From positions 24,223 through 88,222 of the forward strand of contig MHUW01000007.1 in NCBI GenBank assembly GCA_001823575.1: a stretch of DNA of 64,000 nt, in the 5' to 3' direction. The notes below the pieces were generated by a model. The model was not told the DNA's origin and did not search any database. It saw nothing but the letters and a program-made list of their open reading frames with translations. Every line of letters begins with the position of its first letter. The stretch's first letter is position 1. The DNA comes from Candidatus Yonathbacteria bacterium RIFCSPLOWO2_01_FULL_47_33b (lineage in GTDB: Bacteria > Patescibacteriota > Minisyncoccia > Phycocordibacterales > UBA1550). Shown here in pieces: positions 20,398 to 45,793 of this stretch. A program made the translations under genes and the position numbers.

Positions 20398-20439
20398 ATT
20401 ATCACAGAGTTGTATCTATAGATACAACTCTGTGATAAT
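20398..20439. promoter_or_regulatory. perfect palindrome (putative operator), copy 2, sharing a 36-bp core with copy 1
   Basis: ATTATCACAGAGTTGTATCTATAGATACAACTCTGTGATAAT, located 10 bp upstream of the regulator's ATG. Confidence 0.7.
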
Positions 20440-33639: not shown

Positions 33640-33675
33640 AAAAGGCTTCCTCACGGAAGCCTTTTTTCTTTTTAC
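33640..33675 (+). terminator. rho-independent terminator
   Basis: aaaaggcttcc-tcac-ggaagcctttttt. Confidence 0.7.
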
Positions 33676-35144
33676 CCCCTCCTCAGCACCTCAAAGATCT
33701 CTACCATCGCCATCGTGTCGAGGGCGCAGTATTTGAGAAGGTTTGCTTTTGTTTTTTCAATATCTTCATCACTCATACCACCCCTGATCATCTTTTCCCA
33801 TTCGCTGAGCGCCATGGTGCCATTTTGAATATCGAGCGTCTTGTATGAGAGTTCGGGCAAAAGCACGGGCAATACTTTTTTAATAGATGCACTTCCCTGA
33901 AAATCTGGATGTTGATAGTCATCCTTAAAAATTTTCATCAAGTCAAAAACTCTACTGTTGATATCTTCGAGAAAACCGCGATGCTCGGGGTGCAGCTCAG
34001 CGAGCTCCATATTGCGCCCCTTCTCAAATGACTCATACCACACAATGACGCTGCCCACGGGCCCTACACAGCCTCGCAGGGCATCTAGGAGGCCATTTGT
34101 TGCGCCAGGCAGTCCACCCGCAAGGTATTCAAAGTGCTCAAGCGTGCCATCCGCATCAAGCTTGTGCACCGACACCTGAAAGACAATTTGCTGGTTTGTT
34201 TTGTACCCGTCGAGAAGTGGTATGGGCGTGCCGTAGGTTTCGTAGTCGAGAAAGTACAGTGGAAAGGTGAGCTGCGAAAGTGTTTCATCTATTCCTTCTG
34301 TATTGATAATCGGCCGACCCGTTTTTTGTAACGTAACCTTGTCACGCTGTATGTCGGTCAAGTCAAAGTCTTCGGGAATATCTGCAATCTCTAAAACACC
34401 CATATCTAAAAGTTGACGGAGTTTATTCCCCTGCACAATGTGATGCACCGAGTACTCCGGCACCTGCGGATTGAATTTATGGAAACAATCACACCGCTGA
34501 CCGTGGCTCTTATACAAACAGTCACACCCCACGAGCGAAATTTCATCCTTTGCAAGCATTACGAGTGCCCGTTCAATCTCTGCTCGCACCACCTCCTTTT
34601 CCTCATGTATCTGCTCGGTGACGTTCTCAATAATAAAAAGCTGGTTGATATCTACCTCGCCTGCACGGCGATATTCTTTGTTGATATAAATGATGTAACT
34701 ATCGCCCACGTTCACCCCTGCATCCTCGGCGACAATCGTCTGAAACCCGACATCCTTTATATGATTATGCTTGAGGTCGGTCTTGATCTCCGAGCTCGCC
34801 TTTACTTCATAAATATCCCACTTCCCTGTCTCGGCGTTAAAATTCAAAATATCTATTTTTGCAAAGAGCCCTTGCTTGGTCTCAAACGTCGCTTGAAAAA
34901 TCGAGTTGCTCCCCTGCAAAAGCTCCTGCGTACGCGCAAGCAGTGTCTCTTTGTTCCCCGTCACAAACACGCCGTCAGGAAAAAGCTTTTGCACATACTC
35001 CTCCACCTCGTACCCGTCCTTGATGAGCTTTTGCAGAAACAGCGAAAACTCGCCAGGGGTATATTCCTCCGGTCGCTTTTTCTTGAGCCACAAACACTTG
35101 TCGCACAAAAGAAATTCCTTAAAATCGGTTTTGGTGAGGGTCAT
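33672..35144 (-). CDS. DUF2779-like protein (Cas4-like PD-(D/E)XK nuclease N-terminus with Cys cluster + RNaseH-like/DEDD exonuclease-like C-terminus)
   Basis: CDKCLW...C, YEVK, GCDCLYKSHGQRCDC and FLDYETYGTPIPL motifs. The ATG abuts the upstream gene's stop. Confidence 0.65.
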   Translation of the reverse strand: MTLTKTDFKEFLLCDKCLWLKKKRPEEYTPGEFSLFLQKLIKDGYEVEEYVQKLFPDGVFVTGNKETLLARTQELLQGSNSIFQATFETKQGLFAKIDILNFNAETGKWDIYEVKASSEIKTDLKHNHIKDVGFQTIVAEDAGVNVGDSYIIYINKEYRRAGEVDINQLFIIENVTEQIHEEKEVVRAEIERALVMLAKDEISLVGCDCLYKSHGQRCDCFHKFNPQVPEYSVHHIVQGNKLRQLLDMGVLEIADIPEDFDLTDIQRDKVTLQKTGRPIINTEGIDETLSQLTFPLYFLDYETYGTPIPLLDGYKTNQQIVFQVSVHKLDADGTLEHFEYLAGGLPGATNGLLDALRGCVGPVGSVIVWYESFEKGRNMELAELHPEHRGFLEDINSRVFDLMKIFKDDYQHPDFQGSASIKKVLPVLLPELSYKTLDIQNGTMALSEWEKMIRGGMSDEDIEKTKANLLKYCALDTMAMVEIFEVLRRG

Positions 35145-36149
35145 TTAAGCTGTTTTCTTTTTCTTGCCACTCACAAGCATCGTAAGAATGAGCCCTACCA
35201 TTTTATCCTTGTGTGCAGGGTCGCTCTCGGCAACGAGGAGTGTGATTGCCGTAAGTGCTGGTGGTGTAATGCGCGACGTATCAAGTGCTTTCGCTTTCGC
35301 AAGGAACCATACAAACGCATATGCGCCACTTCTTTTGTTGCCGTCGATGAACGGATGATTTTTGATAACAAAATAGAGGAGGTGTGCTGCCTTTTCCTCA
35401 ACCGTTGGGTACATATCACTACCACCAAACGACTGCATCACATTCCCCACAATACCCGCCACGCTTCCTCGTTCGCGTTCGGTCGCAAAAAGATCTGTCG
35501 CCTCTCCTTTTACAACGAGGGACTCTTTGAGTGTCGCGAGGGCACTCCCAAAAGTCTCGGCTGTAATTTTAACCGATTTCTTGGTAGCACCATTGGTGAC
35601 CAGAGTGTCTTTATCGTAAGCATCAAGCGAAAGCCAAGTATCAGCAAAGAGCGAGATGAGTTCAAGGATTCCCTCAGTGTCCACGGTCGCACCCTTGGGG
35701 AGTAGTGCCTTCACGTCGGCCACCGTCTTCAAAAACGCATCATAATTTTGTGAAATACGAGACTTGTTTATCGTGTAGCCGTCAACGATATGAGCACGGA
35801 GGGTTTTGGTTGCCCATTGGCGGAATTTTGTACCAACTACCGAATTTATTCGATACCCCACGGCAATCAAAATATCGAGATTATAAATATCAACCTCACG
35901 GCGAACCTCTCTGCCTGACTCATTTTGAACTAGTTCCATTTTGGAACTAGTTGCTCCCCGAGCCAGCTCCTTTCCCTTATAGATATTTTGGATATGCTTT
36001 GAAATTGCTTGCGGATTTACCTCAAACATTTCGGCCATCTGCATACGTGTCGCCCACACCGTTTCCTTACCAAAATCACCCCGAAGCTCAATAGCTCCAG
36101 ATTTTGCTTGATAGATTACCACTTCTTTTTTAATTTCTTTCGCTTTCAT
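35145..36149 (-). CDS. RhuM-domain / Doc(Fic)-family fusion protein
   Basis: N-terminal RhuM-like region (YQAKSGAIELRGDF...ILIAVGYRINS) and C-terminal Doc motif HPFIDGNKR. Confidence 0.75.
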   Translation of the reverse strand: MKAKEIKKEVVIYQAKSGAIELRGDFGKETVWATRMQMAEMFEVNPQAISKHIQNIYKGKELARGATSSKMELVQNESGREVRREVDIYNLDILIAVGYRINSVVGTKFRQWATKTLRAHIVDGYTINKSRISQNYDAFLKTVADVKALLPKGATVDTEGILELISLFADTWLSLDAYDKDTLVTNGATKKSVKITAETFGSALATLKESLVVKGEATDLFATERERGSVAGIVGNVMQSFGGSDMYPTVEEKAAHLLYFVIKNHPFIDGNKRSGAYAFVWFLAKAKALDTSRITPPALTAITLLVAESDPAHKDKMVGLILTMLVSGKKKKTA

Positions 36150-36235
36150 TGTAGTGTATTATACCATACCATTTCAGCACACTGTATAAAAAAGCCCATG
36201 CGGAGGCATGGGCTGAATTTCTTTATGTTTTTAAA

Positions 36236-36598
36236 TTATATTTTTGCTGTTGGGCGCTTAGGGAGTCCTTCAATCTTTTTCGCAACCCGTTTTACTTCGG
36301 CCGTGCGACTGAGTTTTTTGTGATTACCAAAGGGCCACATGCGCATGGCACTTTCGCCTTCTACGTGGGTGAATATCCGAAATTTGTGCTCGAACTTTGC
36401 CGCGTTGCATTCCATACGCACAATGAATCGATAAGAGACTTCCACGACATCATGGGGAACATCCTCATTGTCCAACTTGCCACGATAAATCTTGTCATCA
36501 GTGGCGCCACATGATTGCACCAAATCCATCATCGCGGACTCATTGGTCTTTGCATCCTTTGGCTCTACGAACCATGTTGTTACGCGTTCCTTTTTCAT
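36236..36598 (-). CDS. hypothetical protein
   Basis: SD GGGGAG. No recognisable domain. Confidence 0.5.
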   Translation of the reverse strand: MKKERVTTWFVEPKDAKTNESAMMDLVQSCGATDDKIYRGKLDNEDVPHDVVEVSYRFIVRMECNAAKFEHKFRIFTHVEGESAMRMWPFGNHKKLSRTAEVKRVAKKIEGLPKRPTAKI

Positions 36599-36682
36599 CG
36601 CGCTTCTCCCCTGTTAAATATGTTATTGAAAACAACCAACCTGCCCACAACCCTACCACAAAAGCGCAGGAAATCAAGATGC

Positions 36683-36717
36683 CTATCATTTGGAAGCTTC
36701 GCTTCCAAATGATAGGA
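36683..36717. repeat. 15-bp-arm perfect inverted repeat (cctatcatttggaag / cttccaaatgatagg)
   Basis: Read directly. Lies in the 5' leader of the 36598 gene, next to a terminator. Confidence 0.6.
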
Positions 36718-36758
36718 AAAGCCCCCGCCATTAGAAAATGGCGGGGGCTTTTGTCTCG
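36716..36758. terminator. bidirectional terminator with a perfect 15-bp stem
   Basis: aaaagcccccgccat-tagaaa-atggcgggggctttt. Confidence 0.75.
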
Positions 36759-36763
36759 AGAAA

Positions 36764-37189
36764 TTAACTAAGTGATGCTACTTCACGCATGATTTGATCA
36801 AGCTTGGTGTTGATAGCTTCTAGTTGTTTCAGAACTGCATCATTGCTGGTGCCGCTTTCAGCGCGAGGAGCGTACGGAGCGCGGGGGCTGAAATCCTTTT
36901 TAGGAAATCTGTCTCCACCTCTATCCTTATTGAAACTTCCTCCTGCTACATTGAAACAATCCTTGCAGTACACAGGCTTTGCTCCCGTAGGGCGAAACGG
37001 TACTTCGCACGCCTTGTGGCACTCTGAACACGTTGCCTTATAGAGCGTAAACGGCGCATCGCTTGATTTACGATCTCCCCAATTCTTCTTGCCATAACTC
37101 GGCGCACCCGAGCGATTAGCACCAAATGAAGGTTTTCCTCCTCTTGCTCCATAACTCCCACTACCCCCTCGTTTGTTGTATTCTGTCAT
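36764..37189 (-). CDS. Gly/Arg-rich zinc-ribbon protein (CxxC...CxxC)
   Basis: CSECHKACEVPFRPTGAKPVYCKDCF with a low-complexity G/R/S-rich N-terminus. Confidence 0.6.
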   Translation of the reverse strand: MTEYNKRGGSGSYGARGGKPSFGANRSGAPSYGKKNWGDRKSSDAPFTLYKATCSECHKACEVPFRPTGAKPVYCKDCFNVAGGSFNKDRGGDRFPKKDFSPRAPYAPRAESGTSNDAVLKQLEAINTKLDQIMREVASLS

Positions 37190-37282
37190 AAGTACGTGGA
37201 CTATGCACTATATATGAAGAAATAGCAAGGGCGATACTGAAAAGGTCAATTATTCTTAATTAATCTCACCTGTGGATAACTT

Positions 37283-37310
37283 TTGACTTTTTTTACAAAA
37301 AAGTTATAAT
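37283..37310 (+). promoter_or_regulatory. sigma70-like promoter TTGACT-16-TATAAT
   Basis: Hexamers read directly on the plus strand. Confidence 0.5.
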
Positions 37311-37317
37311 ATATAGG

Positions 37318-37395
37318 TCTTTCGGTTTTACCATTAAACCGTAAGGGTATTACATCCTAGGGTAGCCCTCCGCAAGGAGGGCTACTTTGTTTTCT
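37318..37395 (+). ncRNA. candidate small RNA (approx. 78 nt) between a consensus promoter and an intrinsic terminator
   Basis: Promoter at 37283-37310, terminator gtagccctcc-gcaa-ggagggctac + tttgttttc. No ORF. Confidence 0.3.
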
Positions 37396-37972
37396 CTTCT
37401 CGGTGTTTCAAATCACGTCCCCAGATATCTTCTTCGATTTTGAGAACATCAACGTACCCGTCCCCTCCTGTGCGTAATTCTTCAGAGACGTTGTTCTTTG
37501 AGGAATAAGCATACACCTTTTTACCATCTCGCTTCAAATAGGTCACCAAGGCGAGAAAATCAGAATCCCCAGAGAAAAAGATAGCCGTATCATATTTATT
37601 CTTGTAATGAATAACATCAATAGTCATCTCTACGTCCATGTTTCCTTTTTCCTCCACAATATCCCCGTCATCTGAATGAACAGTGATACGTTTGAGTTCT
37701 TTTTTGCGAACAGTAAAACCTAAACCTTTCTTAAGGTAAGTAAAAAATTTATGCTTACCGTCCAATGAATAATCGCGAGTTCCTTCTGCTGGATATGCTG
37801 TGTAATAAAATACATCAATAGTATCCGCTCCATGCTTTTCCTTCAAAAATTTCTTCAATTTTTCAAAATCAAACACCCGTCCCTTCACCTTTTGCGCAGC
37901 CCAAAGGTTCGACGCGTCAATGAAGACGTACACGGCATGCGGTTTCTTTTCATCAGCTGTCATAACAATCAT
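37382..37972 (-). CDS. NYN-domain (LabA-like, PIN-fold) protein
   Basis: VFIDASNLW...IFFSGDSDF signature. Confidence 0.8.
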   Translation of the reverse strand: MIVMTADEKKPHAVYVFIDASNLWAAQKVKGRVFDFEKLKKFLKEKHGADTIDVFYYTAYPAEGTRDYSLDGKHKFFTYLKKGLGFTVRKKELKRITVHSDDGDIVEEKGNMDVEMTIDVIHYKNKYDTAIFFSGDSDFLALVTYLKRDGKKVYAYSSKNNVSEELRTGGDGYVDVLKIEEDIWGRDLKHREEKTK

Positions 37973-38075
37973 TCTACCACATTCTCTGCGAACGCCTCCC
38001 TTAAATATGCTTTTTCGAGAAATTTGAGGTCGGCGAGTTTGGTGGTTTGGAGGGTGCGGAAGATGATAAAAATCC

Positions 38076-38576
38076 TTACTTCAACACAACCCCGAGGTCG
38101 TAGATATCAAGTTTTCCATCGTTGTTTAGGTCACCGCTGTCGAGTGTCCCTTGTTTTTTGTGCAGGTCGTAGATGAGTTTTAGGTATTTCCCAAGCACGA
38201 TGCGCGGAATCTCATACTGTCGTTCCTTGCCATACCATTCAAATGGGTCTCGGCCGCTCTTTTTGGCGTTACAACCGCGACATGCAAGCACTTGGTTATC
38301 AAACGTATCTATCGCGATTTTTACCTTAGGAATAATATGCTCCCATTCAAGCCCCTCCTCAGCGCTAGCACAATATGCACAAGCTTTTTCTTCGTTAAAG
38401 AATTTCTTGTTCTCTCGCAAAATGTTCGATGGTTGCATCTGTCCATCTTTCAATTTTTTATACGAATGCATAACAAACCCGTAATTCTTTCGGTCACCAA
38501 CCGTGCTCCCCGCAATGAGCTTTGCGTATTCCCAATAAATAAGGTCCCGAATTGTTTTTACTGAAGCGTGAGGCAT
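38076..38576 (-). CDS. HNH endonuclease with a dockerin-like C-terminal motif
   Basis: CAYC...EWEHIIP...LACRGCNAKK HNH motif. C-terminal DLNNDGKLDIYDL. Confidence 0.8.
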   Translation of the reverse strand: MPHASVKTIRDLIYWEYAKLIAGSTVGDRKNYGFVMHSYKKLKDGQMQPSNILRENKKFFNEEKACAYCASAEEGLEWEHIIPKVKIAIDTFDNQVLACRGCNAKKSGRDPFEWYGKERQYEIPRIVLGKYLKLIYDLHKKQGTLDSGDLNNDGKLDIYDLGVVLK

Positions 38577-38590
38577 GATATTTTAAATTC

Positions 38591-38962
38591 TCAGTCTGCT
38601 TTTTTGTTTCTCGGGATCTCACTTCGGGGTTCTCTTCGAGATTTATCAAAAATATTTTCCAGCCATCTTACTAGGAAATTATGATGGTCACCACCAACCT
38701 CATCATAACGCCTGCCTGTAAGGTTTCTTGTAACTGCCTTTAAAAATTCGGCTAGATGCTCGATTTGTAACTTAATATTAACATCCTTTGTAGAAGTAGC
38801 CAGGGAGCGCGTCGCTCTATATTCTGAATTAAATATATTCGCAAGCTCCTGTTTATGTTTTCTCTCCTTAATAAAGACTGAGAATTCGTAGGTAATAAAA
38901 ATAACATTAACAACAAATGAGACTATCTGGAGCCACTCTGGGCTTGGAATTATATTTGGCAT
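38591..38962 (-). CDS. hypothetical membrane-anchored protein
   Basis: N-terminal TM. Same operon as the HNH gene. Confidence 0.5.
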   Translation of the reverse strand: MPNIIPSPEWLQIVSFVVNVIFITYEFSVFIKERKHKQELANIFNSEYRATRSLATSTKDVNIKLQIEHLAEFLKAVTRNLTGRRYDEVGGDHHNFLVRWLENIFDKSRREPRSEIPRNKKAD

Positions 38963-38966
38963 AATT

Positions 38967-39140
38967 TTAGTGTTTGGTTGGGTCTACTAATTTATAAGAA
39001 GATCCTAGTTTTAAGATTGGCGGTAATGTTTTCCCTTTTACACACGTGACTTCAATTCCTGTTTCGCCTCCTCTTGGTCCTATTACTTCATACTGCCCTG
39101 ATCTTGGCACCGCTTGCCCTGGTTTAAATGTATTCTTCAT
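38967..39140 (-). CDS. small YjzC-like protein (57 aa), absent from the ORF track
   Basis: Manual translation MKNTFKPGQAVPRSGQYEVIGPRGGETGIEVTCVKGKTLPPI... matches the YjzC-like pattern KPG.KAP.SG.Y...G..GG...LPP. 4-5 nt intergenic gaps on both sides. Confidence 0.45.
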   Translation of the reverse strand: MKNTFKPGQAVPRSGQYEVIGPRGGETGIEVTCVKGKTLPPILKLGSSYKLVDPTKH

Positions 39141-39145
39141 AATTA

Positions 39146-39709
39146 TTATTCAGCTTCATTAAGTTCTTCCTTTTCCTTGCAATATTTTTCAGAAAAGTCC
39201 TTTAGCGCCACCTTGATGTCTTTAAGTTCACCATCCATTACTGCATCGTTTGTTTCTGGTGTTTTGGGAATAAGTAATTTTACTCCACCACCAAATTTAA
39301 ATTCAAAATTATGAGCAGAGTTATCGATTTCAGCAGAAAAACCTGTTTTATCCTTAGAAACAGCTACATTGGTTGATATTTTTTTAGAGCGAGAAATCAC
39401 TTTGGGTGACCAGTTTGCCATTTTTGTTGGATCAACCCCATATTTTTCATAATCAGAAAGAACTTTAGTTACACGTGACTTATAAGTTGCCAGTGAGCTT
39501 GCGCTGAAGTTTTTGTTTTTTGAAAATACGTTCTGGTAAATTTGCTCGATGTTTTTGCTAAATACGTCTATCGAATTGCGCTCCTCTTCATTTAATACTG
39601 CCTCAAACAGCTTCAGTGCTGTTTTAAGTGCCATACCTGTATTGTCAGGGTATTTTCTGCTCTTGACCGCTCTGTCTATAAACTCATATAGATCTTGAAT
39701 TTTTTTCAT
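39146..39709 (-). CDS. hypothetical protein
   Basis: First gene of a 4-gene minus-strand operon downstream of the RM gene. Confidence 0.5.
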   Translation of the reverse strand: MKKIQDLYEFIDRAVKSRKYPDNTGMALKTALKLFEAVLNEEERNSIDVFSKNIEQIYQNVFSKNKNFSASSLATYKSRVTKVLSDYEKYGVDPTKMANWSPKVISRSKKISTNVAVSKDKTGFSAEIDNSAHNFEFKFGGGVKLLIPKTPETNDAVMDGELKDIKVALKDFSEKYCKEKEELNEAE

Positions 39710-39851
39710 GATATTTTTGGGGTTAATTAGTAACTCCTAAATGCTATCACAACTCAACAATATAAGTCAAGTGATAATATAAACAGATTTGTGTATAATC
39801 TGTTTATATGTGGTTTTTAAAGGGTTTTATGTTATTAAAGTTTTATTTGGA

Positions 39852-42800
39852 CTACTTATCAACATTTTTAATTGCAATCATAATCCTATCCGTTTCAACC
39901 AGTGCTACAATCATTTTTTGATAGTGTTCGATGTCTGTGTTGGAGAGTTTGCGGGATTGGCGGTCCTTGAGCCATTTTTGAGCAGGCTGATAGCCACCGA
40001 TGTAGAAATTCCAGGCGACTTCAGGAACATTGCCAAAATACTGCGTGTCATTGATGTACACATTGCCATCTTTGTATTTTGGATATTTCGCCTCGACGGT
40101 GTCGCTTCCCGCCTGAGGAAATGTCGTGATGAAGTTTTTGAGCTTTGGTGATTCCAAAAGATGTAGTGCGCGGAGTTCACCACCGAGCGCAACAAGCTTT
40201 TTGAACGACTCAGTATCTTGAGGATAAGGAACACGCGGAAAATTAATCTTCAAAAACTCTTTATATTTTTCGCGGTAACTTGGTGAGTGCAAAGCGGCAT
40301 AGATGTAATCAAAAATATCTTCGGGGGTTGTCTTGCCGACAATCTTTTCTATTTCATCAACAATTTCTTTTTTGAGGTTCGGTGTTTTTAAGCCGTCTTC
40401 GGTGTAGAGATAGAGGGGGAAAGTATAAGCACCTTCCTTCGTCTGCAAAGAAACGGTACATCTATCAACGAGTGTTTTTGTTAAAAAAATGTGTTTAAAA
40501 TCAGAGCTGCTTTGCTGCTTGGAAACCAGCAGGGCTAAATTATCTTTACCAACCAAATGTTTGTAAACTTTATATCCAGAACGACTAATCAGCTCTGGGT
40601 CATAATAGATCCACACAAAACCAAACGGTCTATACTGCTCTAACTGTATGTAATTTTCATCAAACAACTTCCCTTTAATTCGTTCCGTTAATTTATATCC
40701 ACTTGAGTCGACCACTCGATAAGTAGATTTAAAACTACCACTGTAATTATTTGATAGAAGTTCTTGAATTTTCTTTGTGAGTTTACTTTTATCAAAATCT
40801 GTGAAGAGCGGGTCTCGATCAGTCTGAACACCAGAATTCGAAATCTGAAATAACTCATCAACCTTAAAACCTTTCTCATATTCTTCATTCGCACCAAAAT
40901 CTTTCGGCACAAAAAAATAGTACGGCTCAGAATATTCAAGTTTCTGCCATTTAATATTTTCTACCGACCCAGCATCAAGTGCCTCGAACTTTACTTTTTG
41001 TTTTCCGTAGAGTTCGGTGTGGTACATATCTGCCAACCGCTTTTTCTTTCCGCTTTTCTTTACGAACAGAGAGATAGATACACCCTGTTGAATAGCGAAA
41101 ACGTTTTCGTCCTTCCCTCCGTCAGGTGCTACTTCTTTCTTTTTTGCATTGCCGTGCAGGTCGATAATATAAATCGAGTCAAATGTTTCGAGCAAGTGTT
41201 TGCGCATTTGACGGTGCGTGATTCCGTCGATGAATGAGTTGTTCGTAATCATACCAACAATCCCCTCACCATTTTTCTCAATTAAGTCCTCAGTAAAACG
41301 AATGAATTTTATATAATCATCGTCAAGGTTGATTTTACGCTCGTTCAAATCTTTTTTGTATTCCTTGATCAATTCTGAAATATGTTCACCCTTGTTTTGC
41401 GAGCTGACATTATAGGGCGGGTTGCCCATCACGACCATGATCGGCAATTCGTTTTTTACGCGGTTTGCTTGGTTGGACTCTTCAGTGATTGCTTTACCGA
41501 GACCGATGCTTGAAAATAAGGTGTTTTCTTCTGACTCGCCTTTTTCGAGCGAGTTGGTTAGGTACACACCGAGGCGCGTACTCTCGTTAATATTTGCGCC
41601 AGACTCTTTGATCGTCGAAGAAAGTTTGAGGTGTGCGATAGTGTACGACGCCATCATAAGTTCAAAGCCATGAAGGCGCGGGAGTAGGTCTTCGTTCACA
41701 TAATTGTTCCACCTCCCCTCTTGCCCTGCAAATGATTTTTGGATGTGCTGTATCGCTTCATTCAAAAATGTCCCCGTGCCTGTTGCGGGGTCGAGTACTT
41801 GGACTTTGTGCACCGACACTTTGTGTTTCTTGCCTTGCACCTCTTTCATTATTTCGATTTTTGAATTTTCGGCGAGGCCTTGCGCAAGACCAAACTCTTT
41901 TTTCAAAATGTCATCTACGGCGCGAACAATGAACCGCACCACAGGGAGTGGGGTGTAGAACACGCCCATCTTTTTGCGCTCGGCAGGGTCATACTCCTGC
42001 AAGAAGTCTTCGTAAAAATGAATGATGGGGTCGCGACTGTCGTCCTTGCCCACTTTGTAGTAGTTATGCACGATTGCCTCTACGTCGGCATTAGTAAACT
42101 CTTCACAAAGTTCGTTTACAATAAACTCAATACGTGGGTCAAACGACGAGCCGGCGATGTGGTCAAAAAAATGGCGAAGAAACGGATTGGACGCTGGGAC
42201 TAAATCACGCGCTTCCCTGCGCGAAAAATCCTCTGGTGTATCGTCATAGTACCTTGCAACAAAAAGCCCGTACACGAGCGTCTGTGCATACATATCGGCA
42301 AACTTTTCCTTGTCGAGGTCGGCAAGTAAGAGCTTTTTGATAACCTCGTAGACAGAGAGTAGGTTTTCATTTTTTGCGTTGTCTTCTTGCGCAAGAAAAA
42401 CCTTTACATTGTCGCGGATACGGCGCGCCTTGCCAGCCATCACCTTTGCCAAGACTGAGCCAGACTTTATCGGCTCTTTTGATTCGGTGATGAAGCCGCT
42501 AATTGTGTCCTCGAGAAGCTTGAACGTTTCCTCGTTTGAAACTATTTCTTTTTTGTCGAGCTTTGCGATAACAACCGCCTCGCCGTATCGTGTAGCATTT
42601 TGATAAAAACGAAACTCAAGACAGTTGGTAAGAATAATATTTGAGTATCCGTAATACCTACCCATTTGTTCGCTTTTTTCTATCTCGTCAAGTGAAATAT
42701 TAAGGTCCTTTGCTTCTGCATATGCAACAACGGTCTTCCCTTTAGTAAAGACGAAATCCGGTGCGCCATACTCGCTTCGTTTTGGTTCGTTGTGAACTTT

Positions 42801-42920
42801 TAATTCGGTGATTTTTTCAAACAACTCTTGAAGCGCGGGGCGGTACGAGTGCTCGGTAGCATGTCCGCTTGCGTGCGTTTCAGCGACTTTTTGTATGAAA
42901 TTTTTTACAGTTTGACTCAT
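39852..42920 (-). CDS. Type IIG restriction-modification enzyme, MmeI-like (nuclease + gamma-class N6-adenine MTase + TRD)
   Basis: N-terminal PDFVF...AYAEAKD nuclease motif. MTase motif I VLDPATGTGTFL and motif IV NPPY. Length about 1000 aa. The track start 42959 is not ATG, so the ATG at 42920 is preferred. Confidence 0.85.
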   Translation of the reverse strand: MSQTVKNFIQKVAETHASGHATEHSYRPALQELFEKITELKVHNEPKRSEYGAPDFVFTKGKTVVAYAEAKDLNISLDEIEKSEQMGRYYGYSNIILTNCLEFRFYQNATRYGEAVVIAKLDKKEIVSNEETFKLLEDTISGFITESKEPIKSGSVLAKVMAGKARRIRDNVKVFLAQEDNAKNENLLSVYEVIKKLLLADLDKEKFADMYAQTLVYGLFVARYYDDTPEDFSRREARDLVPASNPFLRHFFDHIAGSSFDPRIEFIVNELCEEFTNADVEAIVHNYYKVGKDDSRDPIIHFYEDFLQEYDPAERKKMGVFYTPLPVVRFIVRAVDDILKKEFGLAQGLAENSKIEIMKEVQGKKHKVSVHKVQVLDPATGTGTFLNEAIQHIQKSFAGQEGRWNNYVNEDLLPRLHGFELMMASYTIAHLKLSSTIKESGANINESTRLGVYLTNSLEKGESEENTLFSSIGLGKAITEESNQANRVKNELPIMVVMGNPPYNVSSQNKGEHISELIKEYKKDLNERKINLDDDYIKFIRFTEDLIEKNGEGIVGMITNNSFIDGITHRQMRKHLLETFDSIYIIDLHGNAKKKEVAPDGGKDENVFAIQQGVSISLFVKKSGKKKRLADMYHTELYGKQKVKFEALDAGSVENIKWQKLEYSEPYYFFVPKDFGANEEYEKGFKVDELFQISNSGVQTDRDPLFTDFDKSKLTKKIQELLSNNYSGSFKSTYRVVDSSGYKLTERIKGKLFDENYIQLEQYRPFGFVWIYYDPELISRSGYKVYKHLVGKDNLALLVSKQQSSSDFKHIFLTKTLVDRCTVSLQTKEGAYTFPLYLYTEDGLKTPNLKKEIVDEIEKIVGKTTPEDIFDYIYAALHSPSYREKYKEFLKINFPRVPYPQDTESFKKLVALGGELRALHLLESPKLKNFITTFPQAGSDTVEAKYPKYKDGNVYINDTQYFGNVPEVAWNFYIGGYQPAQKWLKDRQSRKLSNTDIEHYQKMIVALVETDRIMIAIKNVDK

Positions 42921-42957: not shown

Positions 42958-42990
42958 AATCAATCTTTAATACAAAAGCCCCAATCGGGG
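42958..42990 (-). terminator. terminator after the MazG-like gene
   Basis: gccccgattggggc followed by ttttgtatt on the minus strand. Confidence 0.55.
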
Positions 42991-42997
42991 CGCTTGT

Positions 42998-43348
42998 TTA
43001 CAGCTTCGTATACTTCGTATGCTTCCCTTTGGCTTTTTCGACGGGGTATTTGGCTTTGTTTTTCTCTATCTTTTTCTCGTGGGCGTCGGCGATGTCGATG
43101 CCGAGGTCGTGACTCATCAAAAGGACCCACGAGAGCACATCCGCGAGCTCCTCGCCTATCTCCTCTTTACCCTCTTTTACATACACCTCTATTTCCTCTT
43201 TGTTTTTCCACTGGAAATGCTCCAGCACCTCGGCTGCCTCGAGCGAGAGCGATATTGCGCAGTCCTTGGGGTTGTGGAACTGCTGCCAGTCGCGTTCATC
43301 CCGAAACTTGGTAATCTCCTCCGTTAATTTTTGAATTGAATTAGGCAT
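42998..43348 (-). CDS. MazG-like nucleotide pyrophosphohydrolase (small all-alpha NTP-PPase)
   Basis: EEI..F...R.W..FH.PK...SL..E..E.LE and EE..D MazG-type motifs. 2-nt gap from the upstream gene. Confidence 0.8.
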   Translation of the reverse strand: MPNSIQKLTEEITKFRDERDWQQFHNPKDCAISLSLEAAEVLEHFQWKNKEEIEVYVKEGKEEIGEELADVLSWVLLMSHDLGIDIADAHEKKIEKNKAKYPVEKAKGKHTKYTKL

Positions 43349-43350
43349 TT

Positions 43351-44409
43351 TTATTGTAGGGATTTTTTTGCTTCATTTTTTGCACGCTCAACCATAAATT
43401 TAACGGCTTCGTTCATATTGGTGTCCTGGATTACAATATCCGGCCGTTTTTCCTGAAATACGCGGTAGACCTCATCAGCAAATGCTTGCCCAATCATCGG
43501 AACACGATCATAATCCATCACGATTATTCTGAATTTCTCAAGCCCCGACAATACACGCCGAGCCTGAGAACGAGAAATATGCACACCACCCATAGTGTAC
43601 AAGCGGACTCGAATCTCTGTTTTATCAAACCCATAATCGCTATCTTCAGCAAGGTTAGTATACTTCTTAAAAATATCGTTCAAATGGTGTTTGTCTTTTA
43701 TATTGATCTTGAAACTCACCTTCGTCCCTTTTTTGATTCCCTTTATTTTTTTAACGAAGATGTCTTTAATTTTGTTATCCGCAATATATTGATACCCGTA
43801 GCTATCAAGTACAAAAAGGTCCCCGACTTTTGATGTGAAGAAAATACCCTCACCTGAATGAAGTTTGGGCGCTGTGGTCATTTTTCCTTTTAAAAGGTCC
43901 TGAATTGCTTCAATCTCAGAGTTAAGGTTGCGTTTACGCATAATGTTACGGTATACACCAACGCCGTAGTCATCAATAACAAAAGAAAGCTCGTTGTCTT
44001 TCAGTAGTACCGTAACCTGAATTATTTCTGACTTGGAATGTTCGATAGCATTATTCAACATTTCTGAAAATGCGAACGTAAAAATACTTTTTATATTTTC
44101 TGGAAGTTTTTTAAACGGTAAAAATGAGCGCTCAACATCATCAAGGACTTTGTGCTCCTCGAGAGATTTGTTTTCTAATTTTTTGGTGTACCTATTTTCA
44201 ATAGTGTCTGGATGGGAATCAGCGTATTCTGGCAAAACATACGCGGCATTGCGAGTCGATCCTATTTTTATAAGTTTTCCTTCGGCGACAAGTTCAGACA
44301 GCATTTTTGAAACATACTGCCTCGTAACACTAAAAGCCGCCACAAAATAGGCACTTTTAAGAAGCCCTTTCTGTTTTGCTATCTTGAGTATCTTTTCCTT
44401 GTTCAGCAT
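43351..44409 (-). CDS. wHTH - GHKL ATPase-like - DUF4325 (STAS-like) protein
   Basis: N-terminal HTH, central FSEMLNNAIEHS (HATPase_c-like) and C-terminal RIIVMDYDRV...GQAFADEV (DUF4325-like). The track starts at TTG 44421. Confidence 0.6.
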   Translation of the reverse strand: MLNKEKILKIAKQKGLLKSAYFVAAFSVTRQYVSKMLSELVAEGKLIKIGSTRNAAYVLPEYADSHPDTIENRYTKKLENKSLEEHKVLDDVERSFLPFKKLPENIKSIFTFAFSEMLNNAIEHSKSEIIQVTVLLKDNELSFVIDDYGVGVYRNIMRKRNLNSEIEAIQDLLKGKMTTAPKLHSGEGIFFTSKVGDLFVLDSYGYQYIADNKIKDIFVKKIKGIKKGTKVSFKINIKDKHHLNDIFKKYTNLAEDSDYGFDKTEIRVRLYTMGGVHISRSQARRVLSGLEKFRIIVMDYDRVPMIGQAFADEVYRVFQEKRPDIVIQDTNMNEAVKFMVERAKNEAKKSLQ

Positions 44410-44462
44410 ATTGTAAACCAATTGTAAACCAATGCTTTTTAATTGTCAACTAATTGTCAACC
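44410..44462 (-). promoter_or_regulatory. promoter built from tandem 11-bp repeats (2x TTGACAATTAG, 2x TTTACAATTGG) giving TTGACA-17-TACAAT, leaderless
   Basis: Repeats read directly. The -10 lies immediately upstream of the ATG. Confidence 0.55.
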
Positions 44463-44513
44463 AGCAAAATAAGGCTTATTTTCAGTGTTATTTTGCTAAT
44501 TTGTGGATGTTAT

Positions 44514-45769
44514 TTAAAGAAACAACAAATCCCTATCCAAATCATCGGACTCGGTGCCTTTTGTTTTGTGTTTGAGGGCGGTGTGAGTTGAAGCGAGGTA
44601 CACCACGCGCTTGCCGAGTTTGTCTTCTAGTGTATCAATGCGTTTGTGGATGGCATCAAACTTGTCGGCCTTGATCGTCCCACCGAACAAATCCGCCTGT
44701 GAAGCATGTCCGGGAACAAGGTCGTGGAGGGTTACTCCTGTGGTGCGGTACAGAACGCCTCCTGTATGTATTTTTTCAAGCTCCGCATGCGCGAGCGCCA
44801 TGAGAATCTCGGGGGAATTTGAAGGTACGGAAAGTGGTATCGAACACGTTACGATTTTGAAATTTTGTGTCTTCAGAAAAATAGAGATTTTCTTGGGCAC
44901 CAATTCATAGTGTCGCGCTTTTTTGCAGGCGTCCTCTATGTTTTTTGAAAGCTGCGACCAGAGAAATGTTTTGTCATTGGTCGCGGGGTGAAATGTTAGC
45001 GTCTTTTGTATGGACGAGTAAACTGTTTTAACCTCTGGGTCTACCTCCATAACCGACTCGCCGCCCAACTCGCGCCAGATAGCTTCGTAGGGTTTTGAGA
45101 GATTTTGTCTGACCCAAGAAATATCTTTCATACTAAAATCTTTGGCAGTATACACGGCCCTCTTGGTGAGAAACTCTGCTGTTTTGGGTCCAATGCCCCA
45201 AACTTTCTTGATTGGTGTCTTTGTGAGGAAATCCGGCGCCGTACTTGTCTCGATGACGGTCAGACCATTTGGCTTGACCCAGTTGGATGCAACCTTGGCA
45301 AGCACTTTTGTTGGCGCGAGACCAATCGACACCGAGAGCCCGAGCTCTTCGTTTACTTCTTTTTTAATACGCTCCGCCATTTGCAGATAGGTCATCTTGA
45401 GTGGTGGCTCGAGTCCCGTGAGATCGGCAAAGCATTCATCAATACTATATTCCTCGACATCATCGGCATACCTGCGCACAATATCAAACATCTTGCTCGA
45501 ATAAAGTGCATATGACTTGTAGTCTCCTGGCAGAATGATGACGCTCGGGAAGTCTCTTTTGACTTTGAATATCGGCATACCGCGAATGATGCCGAGCGCT
45601 TTTGCTTCGTACGACAGCGCCGATACAATCCCCGCTCCTCGCCCGTCACCACCGGCAGACCCTTTAGCGTCGGGTCCTTTGCGACCTCCACCCCCACAAA
45701 AAACGCATCTCCATCAATATGGAAAATCACCTTTTGTTTTATGAGATTATTTTGAGCGAGTGTCTTCAC
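44514..45769 (-). pseudogene. dinB: DNA polymerase IV (Y-family) interrupted by a -1 frameshift in a C4/G4 homopolymer
   Basis: The N-terminal frame (IFHIDGDAFFVGVEV...GEERG) and the downstream frame (IVSALSYEAKALGIIRGMPIFKVK...) are both DinB-like. The junction is at cccc 45630-45633. One extra C/G would fuse the frames. Confidence 0.75.
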
Positions 45770-45793
45770 TCACTGTATTATACCAAATTCTCT

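What the first reader, a model, noticed from the sequence alone, without database searches (positions are those of the whole stretch)
42998..44462. Coupled wHTH-GHKL ATPase-DUF4325 (STAS-like) protein and small MazG, driven by a promoter made of tandem 11-bp repeats
A single polypeptide combines a DNA-binding wHTH, an RsbW-like GHKL ATPase/kinase fold and an RsbV-like STAS (DUF4325) domain, which makes it a self-contained partner-switching-like module. It is separated by only 2 nt from a 116-aa MazG-type NTP pyrophosphatase. In a defence-island context this resembles sensor plus nucleotide-depleting effector logic, but I do not recognise this pairing as a named system. The promoter is unusual. 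Two TTGACAATTAG repeats and two TTTACAATTGG repeats sit 11 bp apart, giving a TTGACA-17-TACAAT promoter that reaches the ATG, which implies a leaderless transcript.
Basis: partly seen in the sequence, partly recalled or inferred. Interest (0 to 1): 0.7.

Follow-up and report, generated by a model that had tools for sequence, protein, structure and literature searches.

The report
Portable self-regulated kinase-like gene; MazG a bystander
The gene for a DNA-binding, kinase-like protein with its own repeat-built promoter is real and forms a compact mobile unit found in hundreds of candidate-phyla bacteria, but the small MazG enzyme next to it is a chance neighbour and not its partner.

The parts
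43351..44464 (-). The mobile cassette: repeat-built promoter/operator plus the wHTH-GHKL-STAS ORF, with no terminator of its own
   Evidence: blastn homology to relatives in unrelated contexts (L081 between hsdR and hsdM; L082 next to fumarate reductase genes) spans window 44461..43351 and 44464..43352. That is from the first repeat to the stop codon.
44440..44461 (-). Distal pair of 11-bp direct repeats (GTTGACAATTA x2). The second copy supplies the -35 TTGACA (44449..44444).
   Evidence: TRF period 11, 2.0 copies, 100% match. Pattern search. Promoter scan. Conserved in homolog loci.
44410..44433 (-). Proximal pair of 11-bp direct repeats (TGGTTTACAAT x2.2). The first copy supplies the -10 TACAAT (44426..44421). 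The last copy abuts the ATG.
   Evidence: TRF period 11, 2.2 copies, 100% match.
44412..44416 (-). Predicted transcription start, about 7 nt after the -10, giving a 5' UTR of about 4-6 nt with no Shine-Dalgarno
   Evidence: Inference from promoter geometry. In 51 of 70 homolog loci the -10 ends 6-13 nt before the ATG. No experimental TSS is available.
44224..44409 (-). Winged helix-turn-helix (aa 1-62): recognition helix with invariant S29-R30-Q31-Y32 and wing G50-S-T52-R
43660..44157 (-). SpoIIAB/RsbW-type GHKL ATP-binding domain (aa ~85-250): N box E116..N119-N120-A121, G1 D147-x-G-x-G151, lid/G2 T178-T179...S185-G-E-G188
43354..43623 (-). STAS-like DUF4325 domain (aa ~263-352)
42998..43348 (-). 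MazG-like NTP pyrophosphohydrolase (116 aa). Probably co-transcribed here, but not a family-wide partner.
   Evidence: PF12643 E 8e-19. Acidic motif residues are invariant in 25 homologs. Co-occurrence tests are negative. Its own promoter is present in the syntenic L083 but replaced here.
42978..42991 (-). Terminator-like hairpin GCCCCGATTGGGGC followed by TTTTGTATT, 7 nt after the MazG stop
   Evidence: Terminator scan. A similar hairpin and T-run follow MazG in L083.

Best explanation
The locus is a compact, horizontally mobile, single-gene cassette about 1.11 kb long. It encodes a homeostatically self-repressed DNA-binding protein. The protein's N-terminal winged helix binds four same-strand, helically phased 11-bp repeats (TTKACAAT). 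The distal pair contains the -35 (TTGACA). The proximal pair contains the -10 (TACAAT) and the start site. Occupancy by the protein therefore competes with RNA polymerase and buffers expression wherever the cassette lands. The consensus sigma-70-type promoter and a near-leaderless mRNA make expression independent of the host context. The rest of the protein is a SpoIIAB/RsbW-type ATP-binding GHKL domain fused to a STAS-like domain. I infer that this is an intramolecular, ATP-dependent switch that modulates DNA binding or acts on an unidentified target. It lacks the canonical STAS phospho-serine, so it is not a classical partner switch. MazG is not part of it. The cassette was inserted between dinB and MazG in this lineage, replaced MazG's own promoter, and now probably drives MazG by read-through to the terminator at 42978-42991. 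Shown here: the anatomy, the folds, conservation and covariation of the repeats, the cassette boundaries, and the lack of any conserved neighbour. Inferred: wHTH-repeat binding, negative autoregulation, the TSS, and ATP-dependent switching. Unknown: the signal and the physiological output.

For: The family is large and keeps full length. There are more than 6,600 hits at 90% clustering, and the closest 120 are 64-100% identical at about 350 aa. There are 633 clusters at 50% identity with E<=1e-30 and at least 581 species genomes, mostly Patescibacteria.

There is no conserved neighbour. The 142 flanking proteins hit 162 Pfam families, and no family is hit by more than 4 of them. Ten tightly downstream genes are unrelated housekeeping functions.

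The repeats are specific to this gene. TT[GT]AC[AG] occurs 3.27 times per 150 nt upstream on the gene strand, against a background of 0.16 and 0.23 on the opposite strand. Spacings peak at 11-12, 21-22 and 32-33 bp. Of 81 tandem pairs in 740 kb, 75 lie within 200 nt upstream of the gene. Of 73 loci, 70 have TTKACR-N16-18-TAnnnT, and in 51 of those the -10 ends 6-13 nt before the ATG.

The upstream 65 nt is 61-81% identical between loci. Synonymous third positions are 42-55% identical and a control region is 52%.

The repeat tail covaries with the wing: GSTR with AAT (n=51), GSGRW with ATAGAA, G(R/K)GP with GGT, GSTA with AACT. An unrelated Fic protein in L075 shares only the wHTH and is also preceded by three CTTTACAA repeats.

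Against: There is no experimental evidence that the wHTH binds the repeats, and no TSS has been mapped. Because the repeats contain the -35 and -10 consensus hexamers, part of their conservation could be promoter constraint alone. The covariation classes outside the main one are small (1-5 loci each) and phylogenetically clustered. No second target site was found in the 64-kb window or the 13-kb loci, so an output beyond self-regulation is unsupported. The domain interface in the full-length model is of modest confidence (pTM 0.61, with pLDDT 54-65 around residues 250-290). HATPase_c_2 falls just below Pfam's cut-off. ATPase or kinase activity is not testable here.
Confidence: 0.6

Rival explanations
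1. One reading: a two-gene defence module in which the wHTH-GHKL-STAS protein senses infection and the MazG pyrophosphatase depletes nucleotides.
For: There is a 2-nt gap with probable co-transcription and a terminator after MazG. The unit sits at the edge of a variable, low-GC island carrying a type IIG R-M, HNH, NYN, RhuM-Fic and DUF2779. L110 has both genes within 1.5 kb.
Against: None of 80 homolog loci has any MazG within 6 kb by tblastn or phmmer. Only 1 of 80 MazG loci has the GHKL gene, and there it is separated by GIY-YIG-like and RadC genes. MazG's conserved partner is a DUF2075 helicase. In the syntenic L083, MazG has its own promoter and no GHKL gene. Neither protein has a significant PADLOC hit.
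Confidence: 0.04
2. The repeats are only a duplicated strong promoter, conserved because the cassette spread recently. They are not an operator for the encoded wHTH.
For: Each repeat unit contains TTGACA or TACAAT, which are the sigma-70 consensus hexamers. No binding data exist.
Against: A promoter needs one -35 and one -10, not phased pairs at an 11-bp period that persist across lineages with only 46-70% protein identity and saturated synonymous sites. The non-promoter tail of the repeat changes together with the wing sequence. A Fic protein sharing only the wHTH carries the same repeats. Typical promoters in this genome are of the extended -10 type without a -35.
Confidence: 0.1
3. The cassette is a stand-alone mobile-element or defence gene, for example an exclusion or abortive-infection kinase or a prophage regulator. 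The autoregulatory promoter only keeps a potentially harmful effector at a safe level. This is compatible with the best explanation's anatomy but differs on what the output is.
For: The cassette lands in unrelated contexts at 77-79% nt identity, including inside a type I R-M operon. It sits beside a defence island here. In IMG/VR (pro)viral contigs, 49 distant relatives (29-47% identity) lie near integrases and terminases. The same wHTH/repeat module precedes a Fic enzyme.
Against: Immediate neighbours in 80 genomes are mostly housekeeping genes, and only a minority hit defence models. No PADLOC model matches. There is no match in 50,697 deposited phage genomes or 72,556 plasmids.
Confidence: 0.25
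4. It acts like a controller (C) protein that times expression of downstream restriction genes.
For: The layout resembles C genes: autogenous sites just upstream, a leaderless mRNA, and a typical 17-18 nt gap between site and start codon, as described in PMC2632904. The most common distance here from the start of the last repeat to the ATG is 18 nt. R-M genes lie downstream in the window and in L081.
Against: A terminator-like hairpin and a separate TATACT promoter lie between MazG and the R-M gene. Most of the 80 loci have no R-M gene nearby. The repeats are direct, not inverted. The protein is 352 aa with two extra domains, and its DNA-binding domain is a winged helix rather than the small helix-turn-helix fold of C proteins as I recall it from general knowledge.
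Confidence: 0.04

Closest known systems
SpoIIAB-SpoIIAA and RsbW-RsbV partner-switching pairs, and the fused multidomain Rv1364c of M. tuberculosis
   Different: An N-terminal DNA-binding winged helix is present. No sigma factor or PP2C phosphatase partner is evident. At the N-terminus of the helix after the third strand, where SpoIIAA has Ser58, there is an invariant G307-Q308. This rests on secondary-structure register, not on a residue-level superposition. A profile comparison with SpoIIAA found no sequence similarity.
Controller (C) proteins of restriction-modification systems
   Same: An autogenous regulator gene is preceded by paired binding sites that overlap its promoter. The mRNA is leaderless. 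There is a fixed short distance to the start codon. It is associated with mobile DNA (PMC2632904, PMC2175313).
   Different: C-box elements are described as palindromic (PMC2632904), whereas these repeats are direct. C proteins are small single-domain helix-turn-helix proteins (general knowledge), whereas this is a 352-aa winged-helix protein with two extra domains. R-M association is the exception here.
OmpR/PhoB-type winged-helix regulators on 11-bp direct repeats (pho boxes)
   Same: Winged helices would bind head-to-tail to direct repeats with an 11-bp period at the -35 region. This comparison rests on established knowledge of PhoB and was not tested here.
   Different: There is no receiver domain and the signalling module is different. 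The repeats here also cover the -10 and the start site, which predicts repression rather than activation.
Fic proteins with a C-terminal winged helix (SoFic-type)
   Same: The wHTH is homologous: there is a weak PADLOC SoFic match to residues 5-64, and the L075 Fic aligns at E 4e-4. The L075 Fic gene carries the same TTTACAA repeats before its start.
   Different: The wHTH is attached to a different enzymatic domain and sits at the opposite end of the protein.
MazG-like / DCTPP1-type all-alpha NTP pyrophosphohydrolases (PF12643)
   Same: The 116-aa neighbour is a clear member, with invariant acidic motifs.
   Different: Its recurrent genomic partner is a DUF2075/Schlafen-group-3 helicase, which is absent from this window.

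Membership tests
DUF4325 (PF14213, STAS-like) | Score above Pfam's gathering cut-off | tested here: met
   30.2 bits against a cut-off of 23, residues 282-336. Precomputed PF14213 is recorded on nearly all homologs.
DUF4325 (PF14213, STAS-like) | STAS fold | tested here: met
SpoIIAB/RsbW-type GHKL (HATPase_c_2) | Bergerat-fold motifs: N box (E..N), G1 (DxGxG), lid/G2 (TT...SGxG) | tested here: met
   E116, N119/N120, D147, G149, G151, T178, T179, S185-G-E-G188 are invariant in 64 homologs.
SpoIIAB/RsbW-type GHKL (HATPase_c_2) | Pfam score above the gathering cut-off | tested here: not met
SpoIIAB/RsbW-type GHKL (HATPase_c_2) | Ser/Thr kinase or ATPase activity | not testable with these tools
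   Needs biochemistry.
Partner-switching module | STAS partner with a phosphorylatable Ser/Thr at the N-terminus of helix alpha2 | tested here: not met
   By secondary-structure register, the helix after the third strand starts at the invariant G307-Q308-A309-F310. This is not a residue-level superposition. S279 and S281, invariant at the preceding helix, remain possible non-canonical sites.
Partner-switching module | Cognate sigma factor and PP2C phosphatase | not tested
   None stands out among the commonest neighbour families. Whole genomes could not be searched.
   MazG is absent from all 80 GHKL loci. The GHKL gene occurs in 1 of 80 MazG loci and is not adjacent there.
Known anti-phage defence systems (PADLOC-DB v2.0.0) | Significant match to a system component model | tested here: not met
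   GHKL protein: best hits are DrmA at E 0.0022 and SoFic at E 0.009, both partial. MazG: none.
MazG-like (PF12643) | Pfam cut-off and acidic metal-binding motifs | tested here: met
   68.1 bits against a cut-off of 27. E37, E40, E43, E67 and D70 are invariant and E66 is nearly invariant.
R-M controller (C) proteins | Small helix-turn-helix protein, palindromic C-boxes, co-transcribed restriction gene | tested here: not met
   The repeats are direct. The protein has a winged helix and 352 aa. A terminator lies before the R-M gene. R-M neighbours are rare. Only the autoregulatory and leaderless layout is shared.

The most novel reading that the evidence does not exclude
The wHTH-GHKL-STAS cassette is a previously undescribed class of portable, self-insulated single-gene element in candidate-phyla bacteria and prophages. 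Its operator co-evolves with its own winged helix. Its SpoIIAB-like domain has a real cellular or phage target, for example an RNA-polymerase sigma subunit engaged at the -35/-10-like repeats, or a phage protein. That would make it a DNA-tethered anti-sigma-type or kinase-type effector with a defence or takeover role.
Probability: 0.15. Interest if true: 0.75.

Novelty: new variant of a known kind. Interest (0 to 1): 0.45.

Why it matters
The proposed new defence pairing does not hold. This is a useful caution, because a 2-nt gene spacing next to a defence island can result from a recent insertion. What remains is an uncharacterised family, annotated only as 'DUF4325 domain-containing protein'. 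Only three papers in the searched library mention the domain, and two of them, which were opened, do so only in table entries. The family is unusually tractable. It comes with a predicted operator, a predicted recognition code (helix S-R-Q-Y to TTKAC, wing to the 3-5 nt tail) and natural specificity variants. It appears built for context-independent expression, with a consensus promoter, a leaderless mRNA and self-repression, in organisms with very few known regulators. It could give a first experimentally accessible transcription-factor/operator pair for Patescibacteria and a compact portable expression module. It also raises the question of what a DNA-tethered SpoIIAB-like ATPase does.

Tried and rejected
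1. I searched for MazG in the 80 GHKL loci with tblastn (E 1e-3) and phmmer (E 10). Nothing was found.

2. I clustered neighbours within four genes by all-against-all BLASTP. No cluster spans more than 6 loci, and none has a fixed position.

3. PADLOC on the flanking proteins gave only scattered hits, at most 3 per model, so no defence-island rule holds family-wide.

4. A profile search of solved structures by sequence gave only marginal histidine-kinase hits (E about 0.06). The folds had to be assessed by structure prediction instead.

The phospho-site comparison therefore rests on secondary-structure register only.

6. tblastn against deposited phage genomes and plasmids gave no match.

7. 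I looked for further copies of the double repeat in the window to find a regulon. There are none. Single GTTKACAAT occurs once elsewhere, at 42114, which is within chance.

8. Literature searches for DUF4325, for DUF2075 with MazG, and for fused partner-switching proteins found nothing describing this family.

9. I considered that the TTG at 44421 is the start codon. I rejected this because it overlaps the -10 and the homolog N-termini align to the ATG.

10. I considered that leaderlessness is special to this gene. I rejected this because -10-like elements 6-12 nt before the ATG are common in this genome.

Full report
**What is there.** The window comes from a Candidatus Yonathbacteria (Patescibacteria) genome. 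The protein is 100% identical to an NCBI entry from that organism.

The following lie on the minus strand, in order of transcription:
- a split dinB;
- a 104-nt intergenic region;
- a 352-aa ORF (44409..43351);
- a 116-aa ORF (43348..42998) after a TAA-AA-ATG junction;
- a terminator-like hairpin (42991..42978);
- a type IIG (MmeI / Type ISP-like) restriction-modification gene, preceded by its own TATACT element.

The ATG at 44409 is the start codon. All homologs begin M-[LI]-x-K-E-K-I-L there.

The intergenic region holds two perfect 11-bp tandem pairs. Together they give TTGACA-17-TACAAT. The double-repeat pattern occurs nowhere else in the 64 kb, with 2 found against 0.02 expected.

**Domains.**
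- Pfam finds DUF4325 above its cut-off. It finds HATPase_c_2 just below its cut-off.
- Pfam finds MazG-like at E 8e-19 for the small gene.
- The Bergerat motifs are invariant in 64 homologs.

One caveat applies. The helix that carries the phospho-serine in SpoIIAA and RsbV begins here with an invariant Gly-Gln. This is judged by secondary-structure register only.

**Is it coupled to MazG? No.**
- A scan of one genome per species returned at least 581 carriers, of which I kept 80 loci with up to 6 kb of flank on each side. None contains a MazG homolog by tblastn or phmmer.
- The 142 immediate neighbours hit 162 different Pfam families, with at most four hits to any one. Clustering finds no recurrent neighbour.
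- Ten genes lying within 30 nt downstream are unrelated housekeeping functions. They include YchF, a P-type ATPase, a GDSL lipase, an F420 ligase-like protein and an EamA transporter.
- From the MazG side, only one of 80 metagenome loci carries the GHKL gene. There it lies 1.4 kb upstream, with GIY-YIG-like and RadC genes in between.
- MazG's immediate downstream gene is a Schlafen-group-3/DUF2075 helicase in 32 of 47 cases, usually with a -4 to +5 nt junction. These helicases resemble Nhi, AbiO and PDC-S41 models. The window has no such helicase.

**How the juxtaposition arose.** L083 is a syntenic relative with 82-87% nt identity across dnaX, tRNA-Gln, dinB and MazG.
- Homology to the window stops at the end of dinB (44509). 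It resumes 12 nt into MazG (43336).
- In between, L083 has a phosphoribosyltransferase, OMP decarboxylase, a small ORF, a terminator and MazG's own GGTATACT promoter. The window has the GHKL unit instead.
- The two closest GHKL relatives (88% and 85% protein identity) sit in unrelated places. One lies between hsdR and hsdM. The other lies beside fumarate reductase genes.
- Their nucleotide homology to the window runs from 44461/44464 to 43351/43352. That is exactly from the first repeat to the stop codon.

The unit that moves is therefore promoter plus ORF, without a terminator. Whatever lies downstream becomes a passenger of its promoter.

**The promoter is the conserved, interesting part.** Nearly every homolog is preceded by the same architecture: two TTGACAAT-type units 11-12 bp apart, a gap, and then one or two TTTACAAT-type units.

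Over 73 loci:
- The core TT[GT]AC[AG] occurs 3.27 times per 150 nt upstream on the gene strand. The opposite strand has 0.23 and the background is 0.16.
- Spacings cluster at 11-12, 21-22 and 32-33 bp.
- 75 of all 81 tandem pairs in 740 kb lie within 200 nt upstream of the gene.
- 70 loci have a TTKACR-N16-18-TAnnnT arrangement. In 51 of these the -10 ends 6-13 nt before the ATG.
- The upstream 65 nt is 61-81% identical between loci. Synonymous third positions are 42-55% identical and a control region is 52%.

The invariant core goes with the invariant S-R-Q-Y recognition helix. The 3-5 nt tail of the repeat changes together with the wing:

| Wing sequence | Repeat tail | Loci |
|---|---|---|
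| GSTR | AAT | 51 |
| GSGRW | ATAGAA | 1-5 |
| G(R/K)GP | GGT | 1-5 |
| GSTA | AACT | 1-5 |

A Fic enzyme in L075 shares only the winged helix (E 4e-4). It is also preceded by three CTTTACAA repeats just before its start codon. More distant relatives on (pro)viral contigs often keep TTKACA repeats as well.

Together these results argue that the repeats are the operator of the encoded winged helix. Binding over the -35 and the -10/+1 should repress transcription.

**Leaderlessness.** The -10 ends 11 nt before the ATG. The predicted 5' UTR is therefore about 4-6 nt with no Shine-Dalgarno, and this is the rule in the family. It is not peculiar to this gene, however. In the window, 14 of 51 genes have a -10-like element within 20 nt of the start, against 12 with a Shine-Dalgarno. 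What does differ from typical local promoters is the use of a consensus -35 rather than an extended -10.

**Mechanism.** I commit to a portable, negatively autoregulated single-gene cassette.
- Four phased direct repeats recruit a head-to-tail array of the protein. SpoIIAB-type domains dimerise, which is established knowledge.
- This array occludes the promoter and holds the protein at a set level in any genomic context.
- The layout parallels restriction-modification controller proteins. Those also have paired sites, a leaderless mRNA and a 17-18 nt site-to-start distance (PMC2632904). Here the chemistry is different, and there is no consistent restriction partner.
- I infer that the GHKL-STAS part is an intramolecular ATP-dependent switch. 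Its input and output are unknown.
- A defence or mobile-element role is possible. The cassette inserts into a type I R-M operon, sits at the edge of a defence island here, and has prophage relatives near integrases and terminases.
- That role is not supported by the bulk of contexts or by PADLOC. There is also no match in deposited phages or plasmids.

**Novelty and score.** The GHKL+MazG system is not real as a system. The family itself is uncharacterised. The literature mentions found are in passing. The family is sizeable, with 633 clusters at 50% identity and E<=1e-30, nearly all about 340-355 aa. A self-operated, co-evolving promoter/operator cassette built on a SpoIIAB-like/STAS fusion is a new variant of known kinds: autoregulated winged-helix regulators and partner-switching folds. 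Interest is moderate. The comparative evidence is strong and directly testable, but the physiological role is unknown.

Noticed in passing
L086, L094-L173 (MazG homolog loci); window 42998-43348 for the local MazG: Small MazG-like genes (PF12643) are followed, usually at a -4 to +5 nt junction, by a roughly 520-780 aa Schlafen-group-3/DUF2075 helicase in 32 of 47 cases. Eleven of the downstream proteins carry a Peptidase_S24 domain. A gene of about 230 aa often follows (NERD in L086). The helicases hit Nhi, AbiO and PDC-S41 defence models. No paper in the library mentions DUF2075 together with MazG. This looks like a conserved and possibly undescribed MazG-helicase module.
   Followed up: partly
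L075:2172-2230 (minus) and the Fic ORF L075:1143-2174; Fic genes also at L006:7311-8363 and L029:1451-2401: A Fic-domain protein with a C-terminal winged helix homologous to the GHKL protein's N-terminal one is preceded by three CTTTACAA repeats at 12-bp spacing just before its start codon. Fic genes are also adjacent to the GHKL gene in two other loci. The wHTH/repeat module seems to be shared between different effector domains.
   Followed up: partly
window 33672-42920: A low-GC (0.36-0.44 against about 0.48) variable island lies downstream of tRNA-Gln, dinB and MazG. It carries DUF2779, RhuM-Fic, a treble-clef zinc-finger protein, NYN, HNH, two unannotated ORFs and a type IIG R-M. The syntenic relative L083 has different cargo after MazG: an Eco57I-like methylase, a T5orf172/ResIII protein and GmrSD.
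   Followed up: partly
window 44547-45787: dinB matches the intact 433-aa DinB of L083 in two reading frames, -1 for residues 10-63 and -3 for residues 39-423. This is an apparent frameshift near 45626-45701, and could be a pseudogene, programmed or not, or an assembly error.
   Followed up: partly
window 19793-19812 and 20409-20428: An identical 20-bp perfect palindrome, GTTGTATCTATAGATACAAC, sits just upstream of two consecutive minus-strand genes (0 expected by chance). It looks like a shared operator.
   Followed up: no
window, many gene starts (e.g. 23443, 27819, 30435, 30865, 36149, 47154, 50765): TGnTAnnnT (extended -10-like) elements lie 6-12 nt before the ATG of many genes that have no Shine-Dalgarno. 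Others have AGGAGG. Leaderless initiation appears common in this Yonathbacteria genome.
   Followed up: partly
L081:3441-8496: In the closest relative (88% identity), the cassette is inserted between hsdR and hsdM of a type I R-M system. hsdM starts 11 nt after the cassette's stop codon, and a PemK toxin gene follows.
   Followed up: partly
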